A stretch of 64,000 nucleotides of DNA from an uncultured SAR86 cluster bacterium (GTDB lineage: Bacteria; Pseudomonadota; Gammaproteobacteria; Magnimaribacterales; D2472), in contig CAJIYN010000001.1 in the NCBI GenBank assembly GCA_905181645.1, forward strand, positions 696,691-760,690, read 5' to 3'. The notes under the pieces were generated by a model. The model ran no database searches and was not told the origin of the DNA. It saw only the letters and a list, made by a program, of their open reading frames with translations. Position 1 is the stretch's first letter. Every line of letters starts with the position of its first letter. Shown in pieces: positions 36,048-44,385 of this stretch. Made by a program: the position numbers and the translations under genes.

Positions 36048-37904
36048 GTGAATAGATTTTCTCCATTTAAGTACTCTCTGATATTACTAGTACTTACTCT
36101 TGGGATTCTCTATGCTCTTCCAAATCTCTATCCTACGCAGCCTTCAATTCAGGTTGCTTACACTGATTCTGGTAAGTCAGCAGATCAGATATTGCTGAAT
36201 CAGCTTGAGGATACACTTAAAGAAACTAACTCAGATTTTGATAACTTATTTCTAAGAGATAATAAGATTGTTATACAATTCTTCTCTATCGAAGATCAAT
36301 TAAGTGCCAAAACAATCTTGCAAAGAGCTTTGCTAGATGACGCAATCATTGCTTTAAATCTTGAACCATCAACTCCACAATGGCTTAAAGATATCGGAGG
36401 CAGACCATTAAAGCTTGGTTTAGATCTCTCTGGTGGAGTGCATTTCCTTCTTGAGGTTGATATAGAAAGCGCATTAGATAGCAGACTTGACGCTCAATTA
36501 AACTCATTACAGAAAAACATTTAGAGATCAAAAAATTTATCTAAATGATTCATCAAGTAAAGCTATGACGATGATGTTTGAATTTAAAGATTCAGAAGGA
36601 TTCACCAAAGCAAGTAGCATTATTGGTAAGGATAATATAATCGGTATCAATGGCGCCCTTTATGATGTTACTGAAAATATTGAACGTAACTTGATATCAG
36701 TTGCATATACAGATGCATCAATTAAAGAGATTAGAGACTATGCGGTAGGACAAAATCTTACTACGCTTAGAAATAGAGTAAATGAATTAGGTGTTTCTGA
36801 GCCAATTGTTCAAAGACAAGGCAGTAGCAGAATAGTTGTAGAACTTCCTGGTGTGCAAGACCCTACAGCTGCTAAAAAAATTATTGGAAAAACAGCTAAT
36901 CTTAGAATTTAGACTTGAAGCAGCTCCTACAACATCACGTTTACGCAAAGAAGAATTTACTTATCAAGATGAAAGAATGGGCTCAGCTTATCTAGAAAAA
37001 AATATTATTGTTGCCGGCGAGAGGAAAAACAACAACTACATCTTGATGAGAGCGGTTTCTCACAAGTCAACATTACTTTAGATATGCAGGGCGGAAGAGC
37101 TCTTCAAAAAGCTACCTCAGAATATTGGTAGAGGTCTAGCAGTTCTTTTTGTTGAACAAAAAAGTAAATATGAAAATTGAAAATGATGATGATGGAAATG
37201 AAATTATTACTCAAACTTCTTATATAGAAAAAAGAATTATTAGTCTAGCGACCATTCAAGCTAATCTAGGAGCTTCATTTCGAATCACTGGCGTAGGAAC
37301 TCCTCAAGAAGCAAGTGAATTAGCACTGTTGCTTAGGGCGGGTGCTTTGGCTGCTCCAATGAAATTTGTTGAAGAGAGAACAGTTGGGCCCAGCCTTGGT
37401 AAAGAAAATATTGAAACTGGTTTTAGATCTGTAGTTATTGGATTTATGTTAGTTGTTCTCTTTATGGCTTTTTATTATGGAATGTTTGGTATTGCAGCTA
37501 ACGTAGCTCTTTTTAGTAACTTAATCCTTATAACAGGCATTATGTCTTTGTTAGGAGCCGCTTTATCATTACCAGGTATAGCAGGTATTGTTTTAACAGT
37601 TGGTATGGCGGTAGATGCCAACGTGCTTATCTTTTCAAGAATTCGTGAAGAGTTAAAAACTAAAAATCCACAGAGCGCCATCAATGATGGTTTTTCTAGA
37701 GCTTTTGTTACTATCTTTGATGCAAATGTAACTACATTAATTGCCTCACTTGTTTTATATACCATTGGTACTGGTCCAGTTAAAGGTTTCGCAATTACCC
37801 TTTCAATTGGAATTGTTACTTCAATGTTTACAGCAATTCTAGTCACAAGATCCATTGTGAATATTATTTATGGTGGAAAAAATATTAAGGAGCTCAAGAT
37901 ATAA
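36048..37904 (+). CDS. secD: protein translocase subunit SecD (frameshifted)
   Basis: [51 protein letters not shown]. Confidence 0.96.
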
Positions 37905-38822
37905 TGAATAATCCTATTCCATTTATGAAGTTCCGCAAAATAGCAGGAATAATCTCAATAGCACTTTTTTCTATTTCTGTTCTTACATTAGGTTTTAGAG
38001 GATTAACTCTAGGTTTAGATTTTAGTGGCGGCACCTTAGTTGAAATCTCTTACGAAGAACCTGCGAACCTTGAAGAAATTAGATCAATATTAATATCCAA
38101 TAATTTTGAAGACTCACAGGTTGTAAATTTTGGAACAGATTTAGATGTTTTAATTAAAGTAGCAGATCGAAGTGGTAATAGTAAATTAGGTGATCAGATA
38201 TTTACTTTACTTGAAGATCAAGGCTTACCGGGTACATTGAAGCGCTCTGAATTTGTAGGACCTCAGGTAGGTTCAGAACTAAGAGATCAGGGTGGTGTAG
38301 GTATGCTTGTAGCCCTTGTTTATGATATTGCTTTACGTTGCTTTTAGATTCCAATATAAGTTTGCCTTAGGAGCTGTTACTGCTTTGGGTCATGATGTAG
38401 TAATCATTCTAGGTTTATTTTCTATCTTTGCATGGGATTTTGATTTAACTGTTTTAGCTGCACTTTTGGCTGTTATTGGTTATTCATTGAACGATACAAT
38501 TGTTGTCTCTGACAGAATAAGAGAAAACTTTAGAACACAAAGGGAACTTGATGATCCGCAAGAGATAATAGATCTTTCATTAAATCAGACTCTAAGTAGA
38601 ACGGTTATAACCTCATTTACTACATTATTAGTATTATTTGCTCTATTTATATTTGGTGGTGATTTGATAAGAGGCTTTAGTCTTGCATTAATACTAGGAG
38701 TTCTTATAGGTACCTATTCATCTATTTATATCGTTGCAAATATGCTCATGTCATTGGGAATAACTCAAGAGGACATGGCTATCCCAGAACCAGAAGGCGC
38801 AGATTTTGATGAAATGCCTTAA
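37904..38822 (+). CDS. secF: protein translocase subunit SecF (frameshifted)
   Basis: GLDFSGGT, VGPQVG, IGYSLNDTIVVSDRIREN, GTYSSIY. Confidence 0.96.
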
Positions 38823-39618
38823 GGGGCTTTATAGAAAGGTTTTATAGCCTGTAACATCGGCTTGAAGCACTTAGGTGATGAACAAATAAAATGATCTCCA
38901 TCCAAATACTTTGGATCGCCATTAAAGTCACTTATTAAAGCTCCAGCTTCTTCGGCTATAAGTAATCCAGCTGATACATCCCATTTTTTTAACCCATGAC
39001 CCCAAAAAGCATCTAGCCTTCCTGATGCTACATAACAAAGGTCTAGAGCTACAGAGCCAGATCGTCTAATCGTTACCTCATCTTCATAAAGCTTTTGAAA
39101 AGTTTTCATATTCTCATATTTATAAGGTTGCGAAGAATCTGTATGAGATGAATTTGAGAGCAGAGAGCCATCCAAACCGGGTTGCTTACTAACTCTAATC
39201 TTTCTATTATTTAAATCAGCTCCACAGCCTTTAGAAGCACTAAATTCTTCTTGGCGTGTTGGATCAATAATTACTCCAGCTACAGGAGCGCCATCCACAA
39301 GACAGGACAAAGAAATACAAAAATGAGGATAGCCATGCATGAAGTTTGATGTGCCATCAATTGGATCTAAAACCCATACAAATTTGAGCTACCTAACTCT
39401 TCACCAGTTTCTTCACCAAGAAAATTATCATCTGGATAAAATCTCTTGATCTCTTCTAAAACAATTTTTTCGACTCTGCGATCAATTGCAGTCGTGTAAT
39501 CAGCTGGACCTTTCTTTTTAACATCAAGGGTATGAACTTTTTTTACGGCAAATTCAATTTCAGCAGCGCCCTTTCTTGCAGATAAGAGAGCAACATTTAA
39601 TAAAGCTGGTATAGACAT
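38819..39618 (-). CDS. suhB: inositol monophosphatase / Nus factor SuhB (frameshifted)
   Basis: DPIDGTSNFMHG, RRSGSVALDL, WDVSAG; divergent from trmJ. Confidence 0.92.
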
Positions 39619-39653
39619 GTCGCTATTGTAATGGAAATGAGGATAATAGTTGC

Positions 39654-40378
39654 ATGACTTTTAAAAGTAAATCAAAAATTGTATTGGTTGAAACATCTCA
39701 TCCAGGCAATATTGGCGCCGCTGCGCGCGCCATGAAAACAATGCAACTAAGCAACCTAGCCTTAGTCAATCCGGGGGATTTGCATGACCCCTCTGCCAGA
39801 GCGCGAGCAACACGAGCCTATGACATTTTGGATCAGGCGCAAATCTTCAGCAGTTCTCGAGGAAGCAATCAAGCAAAGCACTTTTGTATATGCTACTTCT
39901 GCCAGAAATAGGAGTATTAATTGGCCTACAGTGAATCCTGAAAAAGCTGCAGATCAAATTACTGAACAAATAGCTGGTGATAAAGAGATCTCCATCATAT
40001 TTGGAAGAGAGGATAGGGGTCTTACCAATGAAGAGCTACAGTTAGCCAACACCCATATCGAGATTCCAGCTAATCCAGAATATCCAGTTTTAAATATAGC
40101 TATGTCAGTTCAAATGTTGTTAAATAAATTTTTTTAAGAATATAAACAATACTGAAGACAGAGAGTGGAGAGATTATCCGGAAATTAATTCAGAAGATCT
40201 ACAAAGACTTATTGATCATTTTGTTGAGACCTCAATTAAGCTAGATATGATCGATCCAAAAAATCCTTCCCAAATAATTGCACGTATTAAAAGAATGTTT
40301 TCAAGGCTTCAACCTGATTCAATGGAAGGGAACTATTTAAGAGGTTTTTTAACCGCAATAAATAAACGCCTGAAATAA
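39654..40378 (+). CDS. trmJ: tRNA C32/U32 2'-O-methyltransferase (frameshifted)
   Basis: IVLVETSHPGNIGAAARAMKTM, FGREDRGLTNEEL, IPANPEYPVLN. Confidence 0.92.
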
Positions 40379-40431
40379 CAAAGAAGGCTTTTATATTTTA
40401 ACTTGAACCAATATAATGGCACTCGCATCTA

Positions 40432-40507
40432 GTCCCGTTCGTCTAGAGGCCTAGGACACCGGGTTTTCATCTCGGCAACAGGGGTTCGACTCCCCTACGG
40501 GATACCA
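40432..40507 (+). tRNA. tRNA-Glu(TTC)
   Basis: 76 nt, GTCCCGT..ACGGGATACCA, CCGGG-TT-TTC-AT-CTCGG anticodon arm; TATAAT at 40412. Confidence 0.96.
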
Positions 40508-40517
40508 TCTTTCTAAG

Positions 40518-40541
40518 AAGCCTACATTAGTGGGCTTTTTT
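40518..40541 (+). terminator. intrinsic terminator after tRNA-Glu
   Basis: AAGCCTAC-loop-GTGGGCTT followed by a T run. Confidence 0.75.
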
Positions 40542-40559
40542 ATGCCTTTAAGAAAAAAA

Positions 40560-40668
40560 TGTAGTCATATAAGCTTAAATTGTAGTCAGTATTTAAGCTA
40601 AATTACACACCAATTATTTCAGAAAAGTAGTCACAAAGTCTAAAAACTGTAGTCATATTGCAGTCATT
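40560..40668 (+). repeat. five direct copies of (T/A)G(T/C)AGTCA, resembling integrase arm-type sites
   Basis: copies start at 40560, 40581, 40626, 40648, 40659; copy 2 is flanked by inverted AGCTTAAAT/ATTTAAGCT. Confidence 0.8.
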
Positions 40669-40677
40669 CCTTGGCAA

Positions 40678-40751
40678 GGGGTGGGGCAGGAGTGCCATAC
40701 CGGGTGGGTGGTATATATATAGTGGTCGAGTATTTTGAGAAGTTATTGGGT
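40678..40751 (+). repeat. G-rich direct repeat, copy 1
   Basis: GGGGTGGGGCAGGAGTGCCATACCGGGTGGGTGGTATATATATAGTGGTCGAGTATTTTGAGAAGTTATTGGGT. Confidence 0.92.
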
Positions 40752-40756
40752 GTTAA

Positions 40757-41440
40757 CTAGATTTCAACTACTACCGGAACATGGTCACTTAATTTAATCC
40801 AATCATCATAAGAGCCTATCTCAATACTTTTAGGATTCAAGCCTTTCAAAAATACATAATCAATATGATAGGTCTTATCCCTTTTCTTTGTGTGATATAG
40901 AGTTGCACATTCTTCAGTTCCAAAATCCTCATTATTCAATTTGTGATAACAGCTTTTAAATCCCATGGATTCTAAGACTGCATTAGTATTCCCGAAGTTA
41001 GAATCTTTATTGCCTTTATCCCAAATAACAGAATTATTAAAATCACCTGAGATTATTGCTTTATCAGAACCTTCTAACCAATTTTTATAGTACTTAATAG
41101 CTTCACTTACATGTCCAATATGTCCTTCTCCAAATCTACCTGCAGCCCTGTGAGTGAATGACCATGTTGCTAGAAGCCTTGTGCCATTGTCTAGATTAAG
41201 CGGAAGGAAGTAATCCAACTTATCATTAAAAGATTTATCTACCTTGGCTGTATTATTAAAAAGAACTACTCCTATACCTTTATTTTTTGTATGACCAGTC
41301 CAGTAATACTTAGCATTCGGAAAGAAATCTTCTGGCAGTTCTTCACATTCTTGAATTATTAAAATATCAGGATTAAGTCTATTAATTTCTTCAAATTTCT
41401 TTGACAAATTAAGACAGCAATTCCAGGTTATTAATTTCAT
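40757..41440 (-). CDS. endonuclease/exonuclease/phosphatase (EEP) family protein
   Basis: LITWNC, PDILIIQEC, ISGDFN, YHIDYVF, LSDHVPVVVE catalytic motifs. Confidence 0.9.
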   Translation of the reverse strand: MKLITWNCCLNLSKKFEEINRLNPDILIIQECEELPEDFFPNAKYYWTGHTKNKGIGVVLFNNTAKVDKSFNDKLDYFLPLNLDNGTRLLATWSFTHRAAGRFGEGHIGHVSEAIKYYKNWLEGSDKAIISGDFNNSVIWDKGNKDSNFGNTNAVLESMGFKSCYHKLNNEDFGTEECATLYHTKKRDKTYHIDYVFLKGLNPKSIEIGSYDDWIKLSDHVPVVVEI

Positions 41441-41469
41441 AACTTATCCTAAACAATATCAGACGCAAT

Positions 41470-42359
41470 ATTTTGAAAAAGACTTAATAAAAATTGAAGG
41501 TCTAGATTATGAGAATCTAAAGTTTAAGGTAGTTCGTCATAAGATGAATAGTAAAGAGTGGGAAGACTTTGATAACTTAATCAGATTTGATAATGAAATG
41601 CTTTCTGCTTTTGCAGGAAGTCAATCAAGACAGGTCTATAAAGATGCAGATATCATCCTTACGTTTGTTGCTTTGCCAGGTACAAAAGCTTTATTTAGAA
41701 CAGCTCATATCAATCACGGACAAATTTCTTTCAATCAATATAAAAAATACTACAGTGGATATAAATCCTTCTTGAACTATATAAAGATTAACAACATCGA
41801 AGGAGGAACTCTTGAATACCTTCACTATTACAAGCTTGAAAACTCTCAGCTTCTAGAAAGTTATAAAAACAGACTGGTAATTGAATGGGGAAGGTCAACA
41901 GTATCATGGGTTCAGTCTGGTATTGAAAAGGAAGTAACAGAAATTTATCCAAAAGGCTTTGTTTCATTGTTTCCGGGTTGGGATAAAGTTCATCTTTCAC
42001 ATAAGGAGCTATCAGAAATAATAAATAACCCCAACGGTAATAAAGATTGGTATGAGTACTTGTCTAGACATTCGGGTGTATATGTAATCTTTGATTCATC
42101 AACAGGCAATCAGTATGTTGGTTCAGCATCTGGCGGAAAGGGTATCTGGTCAAGATGGGAGGGCTATGTAAAGACAGGACATAATGGAAATAAAGGGTTA
42201 AAGGCTCTTGCTAAAAATAACCTAGACTTTGCTAACAACTTTACCTACTCGCTGCACCATGTCTTTCCTAAGACAGTTAGTAAGAATGATGTTTTATACT
42301 ATGAGTCATTATTAAAAAATAAACTTGGCTCTAGAGCTTTTGGATTAAACGAAAACTAG
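41470..42359 (+). CDS. GIY-YIG nuclease family protein (frame is open upstream of the 41544 ATG)
   Basis: N-term KVVRHK, NRLVIEWG, FPGW, GVYVI..QYVGSASG..GIWSRW, GHNGNKGL, KLGSRAFGLNEN. Confidence 0.88.
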
Positions 42360-42431
42360 GCGGGGCAGATGACCATAGGGGGTGGGGTGGGTATATATCT
42401 AGTGGTCGAGTATTTTGAGAAGTTATTGGGT
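42359..42431 (+). repeat. G-rich direct repeat, copy 2
   Basis: GGCGGGGCAGATGACCATAGGGGGTGGGGTGGGTATATATCTAGTGGTCGAGTATTTTGAGAAGTTATTGGGT; last 32 bp identical to copy 1, offset 1680 bp. Confidence 0.92.
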
Positions 42432-42546
42432 TTTCTATTAGATTGCTTTTTAAGCTTATCAATCATTCCTTCTAATTCACTGTTCTTCTTATCCATTTTA
42501 GTTTTGTACCCATAAAGAGTATATAAATGTACCCATGATTGATATT

Positions 42547-43128
42547 TTATTCACCTCCGCCGCCAATTGCGCCTCCATCAGCTGAAGCTGCAGCAGCAGC
42601 TATAGCAATAGAAGAGAATAAAGCAATTTGATCAACTCCATTTCCAAGTCCAAAAGTCAAATGATCTTTAGCAAAGTTTGCTAATTCTGGCGCCTCTATG
42701 CATTTGCCAGAATCAATTTGTACATGGAAGGATTTTTTCTTCGATAATATATAAATCTTATCTTTTGCTACTGTTAGGATATAGGTTGATGAGTCATACC
42801 ATTTTTTAAATTTAGTTTGAAAAAGTAATTTACCTGATATTCCGCATAATTTGCATACAGCACCTTTAGCATTAGTAAAAAAGATGTCTCCTTTATGATA
42901 TTGCGGAACAATCCAACATCCAATGTCTGTTGCTGCCCATATTTGATTGCCTGTTTGAGAATCTAGAAGGTAATGGGTATATTTCCCCCATATAGTTGAA
43001 CTTTGAACCAAGACATTATTACCGCAGGTAGAAATTATAGATGGAGAGCCCTCAATAGCCTTACCCCAGACTGATTTTTGAGTATCTAGGTTAAATCTAG
43101 CAACGGAATTTTTTTGACCTAAAAACAA
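42547..43128 (-). CDS. PQQ-like beta-propeller repeat protein with Ala/Gly tail
   Basis: LDSQTGNQIW-type blade motifs; C-terminus AAAAASADGGAIGGGE. Confidence 0.6.
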   Translation of the reverse strand: MFLGQKNSVARFNLDTQKSVWGKAIEGSPSIISTCGNNVLVQSSTIWGKYTHYLLDSQTGNQIWAATDIGCWIVPQYHKGDIFFTNAKGAVCKLCGISGKLLFQTKFKKWYDSSTYILTVAKDKIYILSKKKSFHVQIDSGKCIEAPELANFAKDHLTFGLGNGVDQIALFSSIAIAAAAASADGGAIGGGGE

Positions 43129-43247
43129 TTAGAAGGGTTGTTTTGTAGCGTGAATCTGACCAGAATAAAAACGGTAAGAGAACTAAGCAAAGCAATTGTT
43201 TAACTAGCTAGTTAAATTTTTTTAAATATTATTGAAGGGGAATTTCA

Positions 43248-43625
43248 ATGAATAAGACTCTAATCGCTCTTGCGATCACTGCTGCTCATCATGAAGAAGA
43301 GAAGGTTGCAGCCCAAGGAATGATTTCATCAGATGTCTTTGATCTTGCTGGAGAAATGGATTTATATGTTGAAAAATATGAATCGTGCGGTCAAGCCGAT
43401 GGAAAAGAACATTTTCATCCATATGGAACAGTTGTTTATGTCTTAGATGGCGAGACTACAACAAATTCGTCCGGTTCATTTGAGCCAGTAAAGAAAGACG
43501 AATATTGGTTTGAAAGATCAAATTGGGTTCACGGTGGTGTAGATCCAGACTCTCCAGAAGTAGACGATACTCAATGCAGAAAGATGTTAGTTATTCGAGT
43601 TGCAAAAAAAGGTGAATCTCCTTAG
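43248..43625 (+). CDS. secreted cupin-domain protein
   Basis: signal-like start; HFHPYGTVVYVLDGE and WFE..WVH cupin motifs. Confidence 0.75.
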   Translation: MNKTLIALAITAAHHEEEKVAAQGMISSDVFDLAGEMDLYVEKYESCGQADGKEHFHPYGTVVYVLDGETTTNSSGSFEPVKKDEYWFERSNWVHGGVDPDSPEVDDTQCRKMLVIRVAKKGESP

Positions 43626-43643
43626 GTTGCTGAGATAAGAGAA

Positions 43644-44385
43644 TCAAAAGTTACTTAGCCTTTTATTAATAATGCTGTCAGCCTCGGTCATAATGGAATC
43701 AATTAAGTCTTTAACGGTAGGTATATCGCTAACTAATCCTGCAACCATGCCGCATGACCAAGCCCCTACTTCCATCGTGCCCTCATGCATAATTTTTGGG
43801 TAAACCCCAGCCACTTCATCAACAATATCTTCAAATCTTAACTTGTCGCCAAGAGCTTTTTCTTTTTCCATGAGGCGCTCAACAGCATCGTTATTTAATA
43901 CTCTCTCTGTGTTAGTTAAAGAACGCATAATTAATCTTGTATCTAACTTCGCTAGCATTCACAATTGCATCTTTAACATTCTGATGCACCGGAGCATCTT
44001 GCGTTGCAATAAATCTAGTGCCCATATTTATTCCATCTGCACCAAGTGCTAAGGCGGCAACTAATTGCTGACCATTGCCCATGCCTCCAGAAGCAACAAA
44101 TGGAATTTTTAATTCTTCTGCTGCTCGTGGCAACAAAATCATATTTGGTATATCGTCTTCACCCGGATGACCACCACATTCAAACCCATCAACACTAGCG
44201 GCATCACAACCAATTTTTTCTGCTTTTAAAGCGTGACGTACAGAAGTACATTTATGAATAACTTTAATTCCCGCACCTTTAAGAGCTCCCATATACTTTT
44301 CTGGACTCCTACCTGCTGTTTCAACAATCTTAATTCCACCTTTAATTATTGCATCTATATAACCTGGGTAATCAGGTTCAACAAA
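43644..44385 (-). CDS. nitronate monooxygenase family flavoprotein (frameshifted, 5' end missing or replaced)
   Basis: IVETAG, KVIHKCTSVRHA, DGFECGGHPGEDD, GINMGTRF, WSCGMVAGL. Confidence 0.88.

What the first reader, a model, noticed from the sequence alone, without database searches (positions are those of the whole stretch)
40678..42431. Two ~70-bp G-rich direct repeats delimit an integrase-less nuclease cassette next to tRNA-Glu
Seen: two copies (40678-40751 and 42359-42431) lie exactly 1680 bp apart. Their 3' 32 bp are identical; the 5' half keeps GGGGCAG..CCATA..GGGTGGG..GTATATAT. They bracket the cargo tightly: the EEP stop is 5 bp from copy 1 and the GIY-YIG stop runs directly into copy 2. 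Both copies diverge at the same right-hand base, and each is followed by a minus-strand gene reading toward it. No integrase or transposase is in the window, and the repeat does not look like attC, an IS end or a CRISPR repeat. Inference: a cassette capture/exchange site, or the repeated end/packaging signal of satellite-like elements, that builds an array of defence-type cargo at tRNA-Glu using a recombinase supplied in trans. This is my best candidate for an undescribed system.
Basis: partly seen in the sequence, partly recalled or inferred. Interest (0 to 1): 0.85.

Follow-up and report, generated by a model that had tools for sequence, protein, structure and literature searches.

The report
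Boundary element of SAR86 tRNA islands
The two repeats are copies of an 85-base element that marks the tRNA-side end of small mobile gene islands in the marine bacterium SAR86, here flanking a damaged anti-phage nuclease gene and a later insertion; the way such islands grow is already known, but what the element itself does is not.

Summary
Two co-oriented copies of an ~85-nt G-rich element ("E") lie 1680 bp apart just downstream of tRNA-Glu, and these are the only two in this genome. E is not private to the window. It occurs in 36 of 139 genomes of the same SAR86 family and in at least 118 marine metagenome contigs, 32 of which hold 2-4 copies separated by 0.4-3.2 kb of variable cargo.

The canonical layout is tRNA, then a terminator-like hairpin, then five phased 8-10-nt repeats, then E, then cargo. 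The short repeats are integrase arm-type sites. An intact 9.5-kb relative (G015) and three metagenome contigs carry a tyrosine integrase beside such repeats and a partial-tRNA attR.

So this is a tycheposon-like tRNA island. It is built by integrases that are absent from the window, and decayed modules are left behind.

The "GIY-YIG" gene is UzuA of the Uzume defence system. Its stop codon abuts E in 7 of 7 cases, and here it has lost its start codon to a later insertion of the EEP gene.

E's own function is unresolved. It has no RNA fold, no Rfam match and no attC-like symmetry. Most internal copies (28 of 33) lack att remnants, so a capture-site role is not excluded.

The parts
40432..40507 (+). 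tRNA-Glu(UUC), the integration target (attL side) of the island
   Evidence: ARAGORN and Rfam tRNA at 53 bits. A same-strand tRNA-Glu lies upstream of E, within 400 nt, in 25 of 118 metagenome loci. The same holds for all the tRNA-Glu genome loci mapped.
40517..40546 (+). Hairpin plus T-run after the tRNA (terminator-like); part of the mobile P' arm
   Evidence: Read by eye. It is conserved in relatives. It is repeated together with the partial tRNA at internal module starts. It was NOT flagged by the consensus terminator scan.
40560..40666 (+). Five phased short direct repeats (TGTAGTCA type) at 40560, 40581, 40626, 40648 and 40659; inferred integrase arm-type sites
   Evidence: At least 5 sequence types sit at conserved positions and do not follow genus. 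In the intact G015 element the same 9-mer lies on both arms, 2 + 3 copies. Repeats of this kind also lie on P arms beside integrases.
40678..40762 (+). E copy 1, in the canonical position directly after arm repeat 5
40757..41440 (-). EEP (endonuclease/exonuclease/phosphatase) family gene; its stop codon lies inside E1's last bases
   Evidence: Pfam PF03372, E 2.9e-09. No PADLOC match.
40768..41476 (.). 709-bp block carrying EEP, absent from a population variant; its insertion removed the UzuA start codon
   Evidence: One contig of run X15 joins 40767 to 41477 with 24 other letters between, which restore an MSDLTL start (tables 5 and 5c). That start matches the G151 homologue.
41477..42359 (+). 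UzuA (Uzume) homologue: PUA/ASCH-like N-domain plus C-terminal GIY-YIG nuclease. It is 5'-truncated; the first ATG is at 41544
   Evidence: - PADLOC UzuA, E 2.3e-69.
- 70% identical to the G151 protein.
- AF2 model of the G151 homologue, pLDDT 93.7.
- I-TevI catalytic domain, Z 10.1.
- Family profile against PDB, E 2.4e-06.
- Reading frame open from 41442 without a start codon.
42356..42442 (+). E copy 2, abutting the UzuA stop codon
   Evidence: The same UzuA-stop/E joint is seen in 7 of 7 cases.
42547..43128 (-). First backbone gene after the island (PQQ_2-like), syntenic with same-genus genome G002
   Evidence: Pfam and the locus maps.

Best explanation
**What it is.** The two repeats are two copies of "E", a conserved ~85-nt cis element. 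E forms the inner edge of the tRNA-proximal (P') arm of a family of small integrative elements in one SAR86 family. These elements insert into the 3' end of tRNA genes: mostly tRNA-Glu, also Phe and Thr, plus a tRNA-Met locus.

**How the island grows.**
- A tyrosine integrase recombines the element's attP with the tRNA. The integrase is carried by rare intact elements and is absent from this genome.
- The short phased repeats next to the tRNA are its arm-type binding sites.
- Each new arrival pushes older modules inward. The older modules then lose their integrase, partial tRNA and arm repeats by deletion, so E copies and cargo remain as an array. This is the growth model proposed for tycheposon islands in Prochlorococcus.

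**In this window.**
- Copy 1 is the current tRNA-proximal module.
- Copy 2 belongs to a UzuA-E unit, an Uzume defence nuclease gene whose stop codon always abuts E.
- The EEP gene was inserted later between copy 1 and UzuA and destroyed the UzuA start.

**Shown and inferred.**
- Shown: the anatomy, the family distribution, the arrays, the partial-tRNA repeats, integrases with matching arm repeats, and the composite nature of the "cassette".
- Inferred: that the window's two copies arose by this route, since no att remnant survives here.
- Inferred, at about 0.3: E's function. My preferred reading is a polar insulator. E is closed in all six reading frames. On the strand read by genes that converge on the tRNA it is C-rich, G-poor and unstructured, like a Rho-loading site. 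It would stop cargo translation and transcription from running into the arm sites and the tRNA.
For: **Conserved layout.** The order tRNA, hairpin, 5 repeats, E is seen in relatives of several genera.

**Distribution.**
- E is in 36 of 139 family genomes, in 8 of 10 genera.
- Those loci hold 1/2/3/4 copies in 86/27/4/1 cases. Copies are co-oriented in all loci but one.

**Module starts.**
- Internal modules start with the last ~17 nt of tRNA-Glu, then the hairpin, then repeats of another type (L101 and L135).
- 15 partial tRNA-Glu copies were listed, at least one of them cut by a contig end.
- Partial copies also lie inside the islands of G151, G132, G069/L013, G156 and G089.

**Intact element in G015.** It runs tRNA-Phe, E, cargo, integrase (Pfam E 2.3e-16), then a perfect 52-nt attR. 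The same 9-mer occurs 2x on one arm and 3x on the other.

**Integrases in metagenome contigs.**
- Integrases of 441-455 aa lie next to arm repeats and a partial tRNA-Glu in L112, L094 and L187.
- A homologue lies on a short G010 contig with no tRNA or E on it.

**Other points.**
- G089 holds a 3.9-kb integrase-less element with the same repeat type on both arms.
- 14 of 60 'naked' E copies keep a 12-32-nt remnant of an arm directly against E; the shifted control gave 0 of 60.
- Copies within an array differ as much as copies from different contigs (0.160 vs 0.158 mismatches per column). They were therefore acquired independently and are not duplications.
- The EEP-less variant restores the UzuA start.
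- Tycheposon model: passages of the preprint 10.1101/2020.12.28.424599.

**For the insulator idea.**
- 102 of 113 copies are closed in all six frames, and the + strand is 35% G and 12% C.
- 68 of 125 downstream ORFs converge on E, and 19 of them stop 4 or 8 nt inside E as the script reckoned its end.
- RNAalifold gives -0.94 kcal/mol.
- Rho is present in 4 of 4 genomes checked.
Against: - The window holds no partial tRNA-Glu, no integrase and no arm remnant before copy 2. The accretion route is therefore not shown for this locus.
- 28 of 33 later copies in arrays have neither a partial tRNA nor repeats within 330 nt. 46 of 60 naked copies show no arm remnant. Simple accretion plus decay does not obviously explain them.
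- E is shared by elements that target different tRNAs and carry different arm types, so it is not explained by integrase specificity.
- Integrases are rare: 3 of 118 loci hold a homologue, and nearly all of the 139 genomes have at most the two Xer-like genes.
- No excised circle or empty site was seen, but only assembled contigs could be laid, and these cannot show rare forms.

**Against the insulator idea.**
- Conservation is at the level of sequence, not just composition.
- Copies from genera g8/g9 (G015, G089, G096) carry the G-run inverted.
- 47 of 125 downstream ORFs are co-oriented with E.
- No strand-specific RNA data were available.
Confidence: 0.6

Rival explanations
1. E is itself a recombination (capture/exchange) site, functionally like attC/attI. 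Circular [cargo+E] units would integrate at a resident E through a recombinase acting in trans, or through RecA using E as 85 bp of portable homology. This would build integron-like arrays independently of the tRNA att site.
For: - Arrays of 2-4 co-oriented copies occur with 0.4-3.2 kb spacing, that is 1-2 genes.
- 28 of 33 later copies have no att remnants.
- The right-hand junction is sharp, and convergent ORFs end inside E's last bases.
- The same cargo flank follows E copies of different variants and arm types.
- The same E1/EEP joint occurs behind a different arm type in L080.
- 3'-half-only copies and the window's identity break all fall at the same short AT-run/CTAG boundary.
Against: - No recombinase is linked to E. 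Only two Xer-like genes occur per genome in most of the 139 genomes, and the SAR86 dif site does not resemble E.
- E has no inverted-repeat or foldable structure.
- Mismatch maps of 23 within-array pairs show no shared breakpoint.
- Cargo orientation relative to E is mixed, 68 against 47.
- 14 of 60 naked copies are demonstrably truncated arm modules.
Confidence: 0.2
2. UzuA behaves as a selfish, homing-type GIY-YIG endonuclease gene whose target is the arm-repeat/E junction. Break repair would copy UzuA, and sometimes E, into new islands, which would explain E1-UzuA-E2 here.
For: - The GIY-YIG domain is closest to I-TevI.
- UzuA is sporadic: 3 of 139 family genomes, 5 of 266 order genomes and 4 of 118 metagenome loci.
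- Its stop abuts E in 7 of 7 cases.
- In 4 cases (G128, G151, L166, L161) it sits between repeat 5 and E, behind three different repeat types and with unrelated upstream leaders.
Against: - It is a full-length match to the Uzume defence family.
- The N-domain looks like a modified-base reader (PUA/ASCH/YTH, PD-T4-3 Z 6.9), not a homing-endonuclease DNA-binding module.
- In other SAR86 families it lies in tRNA islands without E.
- Most E arrays have no UzuA.
Confidence: 0.07
3. E is purely a gene-expression signal that travels with individual cargo genes: a promoter or leader for the gene to its right, or an unstructured small RNA. Its repetition would then only reflect repeated use of the same signal.
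For: - There are weak sigma-70-like matches in both directions inside conserved columns.
- 47 of 125 downstream ORFs are co-oriented, many starting 9-100 nt after E.
- The 3' half of E stays attached to one cargo gene (NTF2-like) in 5 genomes.
- All 12 ORFs after E in the G015 element are co-oriented.
Against: - Promoter-like matches are not above the shuffled expectation, 8 found against a mean of 8.3.
- The putative -10 lies partly outside E and is not conserved.
- 68 of 125 downstream ORFs are convergent.
- There is no Rfam family and no covarying pair, 0 of 10 predicted pairs.
Confidence: 0.1
4. The repeat is a chance match or an assembly/polishing artefact of an error-rich long-read assembly.
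For: Many genes in the window are split by frame breaks, and the genome scores only 59.8% complete.
Against: - The 32-mer was found in 0 of 100 shuffles.
- E recurs in 36 of 139 genomes and at least 118 metagenome contigs.
- All four joints are covered by contigs of independent public runs.
Confidence: 0.01

Closest known systems
Tycheposons and tycheposon-built genomic islands of Prochlorococcus (preprint 10.1101/2020.12.28.424599; passages read)
   Same: - Both involve a streamlined marine bacterium.
- Elements integrate at tRNA genes through tyrosine recombinases.
- Successive integrations are separated by partial tRNA copies.
- Older elements are pushed inward and decay.
- Intact elements are rare, and most island material lacks an integrase.
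- Cargo is adaptive or defensive.
   Different: - The host is SAR86. No paper in the library links SAR86 with such elements.
- A conserved 85-nt element and five phased arm repeats of at least 5 interchangeable types mark every module.
- E also recurs without any att remnant.
- Homology of the hallmark genes (integrase, replication module) to tycheposon genes was not tested.
Lambda-type attP with arm-type integrase sites (textbook knowledge, recalled)
   Same: Short direct repeats lie in helical phase on both sides of a core that overlaps a tRNA 3' end, next to the int gene.
   Different: Binding is not shown. There are five sites on the P' arm, with a fixed further element (E) that is shared between elements of different core and arm specificity.
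Integron cassette arrays, attC sites and integrase-less attC clusters (recalled)
   Same: Co-oriented repeats of 60-130 nt separate 1-2-gene cargo. ORFs run into the repeat. Arrays occur without a recombinase nearby.
   Different: - E has no imperfect-palindrome structure.
- There is no IntI-type integrase.
- Cargo orientation is mixed.
- The first copy sits in an attL arm next to a tRNA.
Uzume (UzuA) single-gene defence system and the GIY-YIG restriction enzyme PD-T4-3
   Same: - The window ORF matches the PADLOC UzuA model over its full length.
- It has a GIY-YIG nuclease domain. The preprint 10.1101/2024.10.26.620412 lists Uzume among single-gene systems with this domain (passages read).
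- The N-domain resembles the non-catalytic part of PD-T4-3, Z 6.9.
   Different: - The window copy has lost its start codon.
- The invariant abutment to E has no known counterpart.
- Defence activity is untested.
- The original Uzume description is recalled, not seen.

Membership tests
tRNA-integrating tyrosine-recombinase islands (tycheposon-like) | The element lies directly 3' of a tRNA gene | tested here: met
   E1 starts 171 nt after tRNA-Glu. Same-strand tRNA-Glu lies within 400 nt upstream in 25 loci and tRNA-Thr in 2, of 118 metagenome loci. tRNA-Phe precedes E in G015 and G135.
tRNA-integrating tyrosine-recombinase islands (tycheposon-like) | A partial tRNA direct repeat (attR) bounds the element | tested here: not met
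   In the window there is none: the 25-nt tRNA 3' end matches only the gene itself at up to 3 mismatches. Relatives do meet it: a 52-nt attR in G015 and 15 partial tRNA-Glu copies listed.
tRNA-integrating tyrosine-recombinase islands (tycheposon-like) | Integrase gene within the element | tested here: not met
   The window and its genome hold only two Xer-like genes, both outside the island, and no resolvase. Relatives G015, L112, L094 and L187 do carry one.
tRNA-integrating tyrosine-recombinase islands (tycheposon-like) | Hallmark genes homologous to tycheposon integrase and replication genes | not tested
   No tycheposon sequences were at hand. The 465-aa and 435-aa neighbours of the integrases had no replication-family match: only a below-cutoff, unrelated hit for the first, and the second was not scanned itself.
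tRNA-integrating tyrosine-recombinase islands (tycheposon-like) | Excision, circular forms or empty sites in populations | tested here: inconclusive
   Only contigs could be laid. One contig lacks the EEP block, and one weak joint (shorter side 22 nt) links the tRNA end to E2. No circle junction was seen.
Integron / attC cassette array | attC imperfect inverted-repeat structure | tested here: not met
   The repeat finder reported no inverted-repeat pair with an arm inside E. The consensus fold is -0.94 kcal/mol, and 0 of 10 predicted pairs covary.
Integron / attC cassette array | IntI-type integrase with attI next to the array | tested here: not met
Integron / attC cassette array | Cassettes mostly co-oriented with the repeat 3' of each ORF | tested here: not met
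   Of 125 E copies, the downstream ORF is convergent in 68, co-oriented in 47, and absent in 10.
Uzume defence protein UzuA | Full-length match to the family model | tested here: met
   PADLOC PDLC03973, E 2.3e-69, residues 11-271 of the window ORF against model positions 33-278 of 278.
Uzume defence protein UzuA | GIY-YIG catalytic domain | tested here: met
   Family profile against I-TevI chains, E 2.4e-06. Foldseek probability 1.00. VIA Z 10.1, rmsd 2.1 over 88 residues. Pfam alone is below cutoff, E 0.054.
Uzume defence protein UzuA | Intact gene and anti-phage activity | tested here: not met
   The window copy lacks the first ~28 codons and the native start. Activity cannot be tested here.
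Free-standing GIY-YIG homing endonuclease gene | Sporadic presence at one fixed insertion point | tested here: met
   The stop abuts E in 7 of 7 cases. The gene is in 3 of 139 and 5 of 266 genomes. This shows resemblance only. Cleavage of the empty site cannot be tested here.
Free-standing GIY-YIG homing endonuclease gene | Sequence-specific DNA-binding module of the homing-endonuclease type | tested here: inconclusive
   The N-domain resembles PUA/ASCH/YTH folds at Z 4-7.
Known RNA family (Rfam) | Match to any of 4227 covariance models | tested here: not met
   Only the tRNA matched at E <= 1 across 39500-44000.
IS / MITE ends | Terminal inverted repeats with a target duplication | tested here: not met
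   Copies are direct, not inverted, and none of the inverted pairs listed between 38000 and 45000 brackets the cassette.

The most novel reading that the evidence does not exclude
E is a new kind of cassette-exchange site. It would be an 85-bp, non-palindromic, six-frame-closed module that SAR86 cells use to swap single-gene cargo in and out of tRNA islands, and it would be the fixed docking point of the Uzume nuclease gene. It would work through a host factor or RecA, without a dedicated integrase. That would amount to an integron-like gene-capture system in one of the most abundant streamlined ocean bacteria.
Probability: 0.2. Interest if true: 0.8.

Novelty: new variant of a known kind. Interest (0 to 1): 0.55.

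Why it matters
SAR86 is among the most abundant bacteria of the surface ocean. It has a tiny, streamlined genome with almost no recognisable mobile elements.

This locus shows how such cells still trade genes. A tRNA-anchored hotspot is fed by rare integrase-bearing elements. At least five interchangeable arm specificities are in play, and an 85-nt element is conserved across them.

The element gives a simple sequence handle for finding the flexible gene pool of SAR86 in metagenomes, including defence genes such as Uzume. It also poses two concrete questions:
- What does E do?
- Why does the Uzume nuclease gene always dock against it?

Tried and rejected
- **Coding element.** A 46-aa ORF (42356-42496, minus strand) overlaps copy 2. 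In copy 1 and in relatives the same frame is closed at E's edge, and 102 of 113 copies are closed in all frames. Rejected.
- **Structured RNA.** Rfam gave only the tRNA. RNAalifold found no stable or covarying fold.
- **Promoter or terminator by consensus.** Matches were not above shuffles, and no terminator was flagged.
- **Phage or satellite origin.** Three pattern scans of viral contigs gave two chance hits inside unrelated coding regions and one empty result.
- **XerCD/dif-type site.** The SAR86 dif match lies on another contig and does not resemble E.
- **Partial tRNA-Glu in the window.** None found.
- **Gene conversion or duplication between neighbouring copies.** Rejected.
- **RNA evidence.** Run X15 has contigs over the repeats and E1. 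But depth sums all strains, DNA carry-over cannot be excluded and strand is unknown, so no claim on expression is made.
- **Weak joint.** The joint from 40507 to 42380 (shorter side 22 nt, one contig) is not used.
- **Sampling bias.** The metagenome loci were selected with a pattern that demands the commonest 5'-half variant, so their counts are conditional on it. Copy 2 of the window itself would not match.
- **Partial analyses.** Searches used only the first 80 of the 118 loci. Searches used all 118.
- **Weak matches outside the family.** E matches in other families (6 of 111 genomes, 19-29 bits) were not inspected.
Full report
**1. The observation**

The region reads as follows:
- tRNA-Glu(UUC), 40432-40507
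- a hairpin with a T-run
- five copies of an 8-mer (TGTAGTCA or a one-base variant) at 40560, 40581, 40626, 40648 and 40659
- repeat copy 1 (40678-40762)
- a minus-strand EEP gene (40757-41440)
- a plus-strand 271-aa ORF (41544-42359)
- repeat copy 2 (42356-42442)
- a minus-strand PQQ_2-like gene (42547-43128)

The two copies are 1680 bp apart. They share an identical 32-mer that was found in 0 of 100 shuffles. They are the only copies in the 1.33-Mb genome held. Contigs of independent seawater runs cover all four joints.

**2. The repeat is a family element, "E"**

- BLAST found single copies downstream of tRNA-Glu in 4 of 60 relatives.
- A sequence-only covariance model of 9 copies found E in 36 of 139 genomes of the family, in 8 of 10 genera.
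- Outside the family, matches are only weak: 6 of 111 genomes, at most 29 bits.
- One record title identifies the group as SAR86: single-cell genome AAA076-P13.
- Of those 118 loci, 86 hold one copy, 27 two, 4 three and 1 four. Copies are co-oriented in all loci but one.
- Spacings run from 115 to 3216 bp (on 102 sources).
- Among genomes, 7 of the 36 positives have more than one match. G151 has four copies in 5 kb and G158 has three in 3.6 kb.

**3. What lies around E**

- Upstream synteny is conserved (tgt-like, yajC, secD, secF, an inositol monophosphatase, a SpoU methylase, tRNA-Glu). Everything after E varies.
- Between the tRNA and E there are always five short repeats, at conserved offsets of 43/53, 54/74, 101/119, 113/141 and 134/152 nt.
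- Their sequence falls into at least five types: TGTTTCCA, TGTGTCCA, TGTAGTCA, TGTAGCCA and TGTACCTAC. The types do not follow genus.
- In arrays, some internal modules begin with the last ~17 nt of tRNA-Glu, the same hairpin, five repeats of another type and then E (L101 and L135).
- 15 partial tRNA-Glu copies were listed in all, at least one of them cut by a contig end. Partial copies also lie inside the islands of G151, G132, G069/L013, G156 and G089.

This is the signature of successive site-specific integrations at the tRNA 3' end.

**4. The recombinase exists, but elsewhere**

- Most of the 139 genomes have only two Xer-like tyrosine recombinases.
- G015 carries an intact 9.5-kb element: tRNA-Phe; E 170 nt later; twelve co-oriented ORFs; a small GIY-YIG/T5orf172 protein; a 465-aa and a 102-aa ORF; an integrase (Pfam E 2.3e-16); and a perfect 52-nt copy of the tRNA-Phe 3' part.
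- One 9-mer occurs twice on the tRNA-side arm and three times on the integrase-side arm of that element.
- Metagenome contigs L112, L094 and L187 carry 441-455-aa integrases (DUF6538, SAM-like and catalytic domains in the two that were scanned). Each lies directly beside TGTACCTAC-type repeats, a partial tRNA-Glu and the next module.
- A homologous integrase lies on a 3.5-kb contig of G010 that shows no tRNA and no E.
- G089 has a 3.9-kb integrase-less element with TGTAGTCA repeats on both arms.

I therefore read the short repeats as arm-type integrase sites. I read the whole block of hairpin, repeats and E as the P' arm that each element brings with it. Binding itself is inferred. E also follows tRNA-Thr in 2 loci. 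It lies inside a ~1-kb insert bounded by a 42-nt 5' half of tRNA-Met and the full gene in the three genomes checked.

**5. The cargo of the window**

The 271-aa ORF is not a recombinase.
- It matches the PADLOC model of UzuA (Uzume defence) over its full length, E 2.3e-69.
- An AlphaFold model of the 307-aa G151 homologue (pLDDT 93.7) has a C-terminal GIY-YIG domain closest to I-TevI. Support: VIA Z 10.1, Foldseek probability 1.00, family profile against PDB E 2.4e-06.
- Its N-domain is of the PUA/ASCH/YTH kind. It also resembles part of the 5hmC-dependent enzyme PD-T4-3 (Z 6.9). This suggests a nuclease that reads modified bases.
- The family is large: 1531 clusters at E <= 0.001.

The window copy is damaged.
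- Its frame is open back to 41442 and homologous to the G151 N-terminus, but it has no start codon.
- One contig of run X15 joins 40767 to 41477 through 24 letters that restore the MSDLTL start.
- The 709-bp block with the EEP gene is therefore a later insertion between E1 and UzuA. This rests on one contig of depth 3.7.

UzuA is rare: 3 of 139 family genomes, 5 of 266 genomes of the order and 4 of 118 metagenome loci. Yet its stop codon abuts the first bases of E in all 7 cases where the 3' end is seen (G000, G128, G151, L166, L161, L170, L187). In four of these it sits between repeat 5 and E, behind three different repeat types. In two other SAR86 families it lies in tRNA-adjacent DNA without E. 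I have no tested explanation for this fixed joint.

Cargo elsewhere includes a beta-lactamase-family hydrolase, an NTF2-like protein, ABM monooxygenases, an ion channel, an FG-GAP protein and many unknowns. The arrays are therefore not specifically defence arrays.

**6. What E is not, and what it might be**

What E is not:
- It has no Rfam match.
- It has no stable or covarying fold.
- It has no inverted symmetry.
- It has no convincing promoter.
- It has no resemblance to the SAR86 dif site.
- It was not found in viral contigs.

What the copies show:
- Neighbouring copies in an array are as different as copies from unrelated contigs (0.160 against 0.158 mismatches per column, 23 pairs). No breakpoint is shared. 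The copies were acquired independently.
- 102 of 113 copies are closed in all six frames, and the + strand has 35% G and 12% C.
- Of 125 copies, the next ORF converges on E in 68 cases and is co-oriented in 47. 19 of the convergent ORFs stop 4 or 8 nt inside E as the script reckoned its end.
- Rho is present in 4 of 4 genomes checked.

My preferred reading, held at about 0.3, is a polar insulator at the inner edge of the att arm.

Results against the simple accretion-and-decay picture:
- 28 of 33 later copies have no partial tRNA or repeats within 330 nt.
- Only 14 of 60 naked copies keep a 12-32-nt arm remnant, although the control gave 0 of 60.
- The same cargo flank, and the same E1/EEP joint (L080), occur behind different arm types.
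- Several truncations share the AT-run/CTAG boundary in the middle of E.

These results keep alive the idea that E is itself a site of exchange.

**7. Comparison and novelty**

- The island mechanics match the model drawn for tycheposons in Prochlorococcus: integration at tRNAs, tandem arrivals separated by partial tRNAs, decay, and rare intact elements (passages read).
- Membership in that family was not tested at the gene level.
- E fails the defining features of integron attC arrays (see the membership table).
- Library searches found no paper describing such elements in SAR86:
  - SAR86 + genomic island + tRNA gave 23 papers.
  - SAR86 + integrase + mobile genetic element gave 9 papers.
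  - tycheposon + SAR86 gave 2 papers, both on Prochlorococcus metabolites.
  - Only listings and the passages cited were seen.

I rate this a new variant of a known kind. It is a tRNA-island system with an unexplained, highly conserved 85-nt module and interchangeable arm sets.

**8. Verdict**

- Best explanation, at 0.6: E marks the P' arm of tRNA-integrating, integrase-mobilised islands, and the window shows a decayed two-module remnant with a broken Uzume gene.
- Most novel surviving reading, at 0.2: E is itself a capture or exchange site.

Noticed in passing
window 36048-40137 and 43644-44292: Housekeeping genes are split into pieces: SecD in 3 ORFs, and SecF, an inositol monophosphatase, a SpoU methylase and a nitronate monooxygenase in 2 each. 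Rho is split elsewhere in the genome. Relatives have them intact. This points to an indel-rich (long-read) assembly rather than pseudogenes, and it fits the 59.8% completeness score.
   Followed up: partly
window 41378-41504 (especially 41454-41498): Summed contig depth jumps to 500-1070, against 5-55 in the bins either side, in three DNA runs. 4-5 contigs per run diverge just before 41454. So a ~45-nt stretch at the EEP/UzuA joint is shared with something far more abundant. Its identity is unknown.
   Followed up: no
L047 4889-5960 (G158:C3); also L074, L075: A second E locus. A ~1-kb insert with E and a 124-aa membrane-protein ORF is bounded by a 42-nt copy of the 5' half of tRNA-Met, broken in the anticodon loop, and the full tRNA-Met gene. 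The same layout is seen in 3 genomes checked.
   Followed up: partly
E copies of G015, G089, G096 (L072 1533-1613 and others): The G-run in E's 5' half occurs in three forms. One is G-rich. One has a central 5-mer replaced by its reverse complement, which makes a short palindrome. One has the whole run inverted to a C-run. This looks like templated small inversions.
   Followed up: partly
L072+L203 (G015:C1:1231290-1240900): An intact 9.5-kb integrative element at tRNA-Phe. Its cargo includes a MORN-repeat protein and an SRAP (SOS-response-associated peptidase) protein. It also carries a small GIY-YIG/T5orf172 protein and a 465-aa ORF without a significant family match, next to the integrase.
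   Followed up: partly
L187 3922-5229; L094 2860-3846: A 435-aa protein (329 aa seen in L094) sits beside the integrase. L094 has several treble-clef zinc-finger (DUF4379) repeats by Pfam. The L187 translation shows many Cys-X2-Cys pairs and, by eye, a T5orf172-like C-terminus. It could be a hallmark gene of these elements.
   Followed up: no
L208 1274-2400 (G049, another SAR86 family): UzuA is the first gene after tRNA-Asp, about 150 nt downstream, with no E after its stop codon. So the defence gene rides tRNA islands across SAR86 families.
   Followed up: partly
L087 133-610: This is the only locus with two E copies in inverted orientation, about 400 nt apart.
   Followed up: no
window 42356-42496 (minus strand): A 46-aa ORF reads through copy 2 of E. 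It is probably spurious, because the same frame is closed at E's edge in copy 1 and in relatives.
   Followed up: yes
G000:C2:70273-70297 (outside the window): A dif-like site with an alternating AT central region is present once per genome in the 4 SAR86 genomes searched. This is useful for locating the replication terminus.
   Followed up: no
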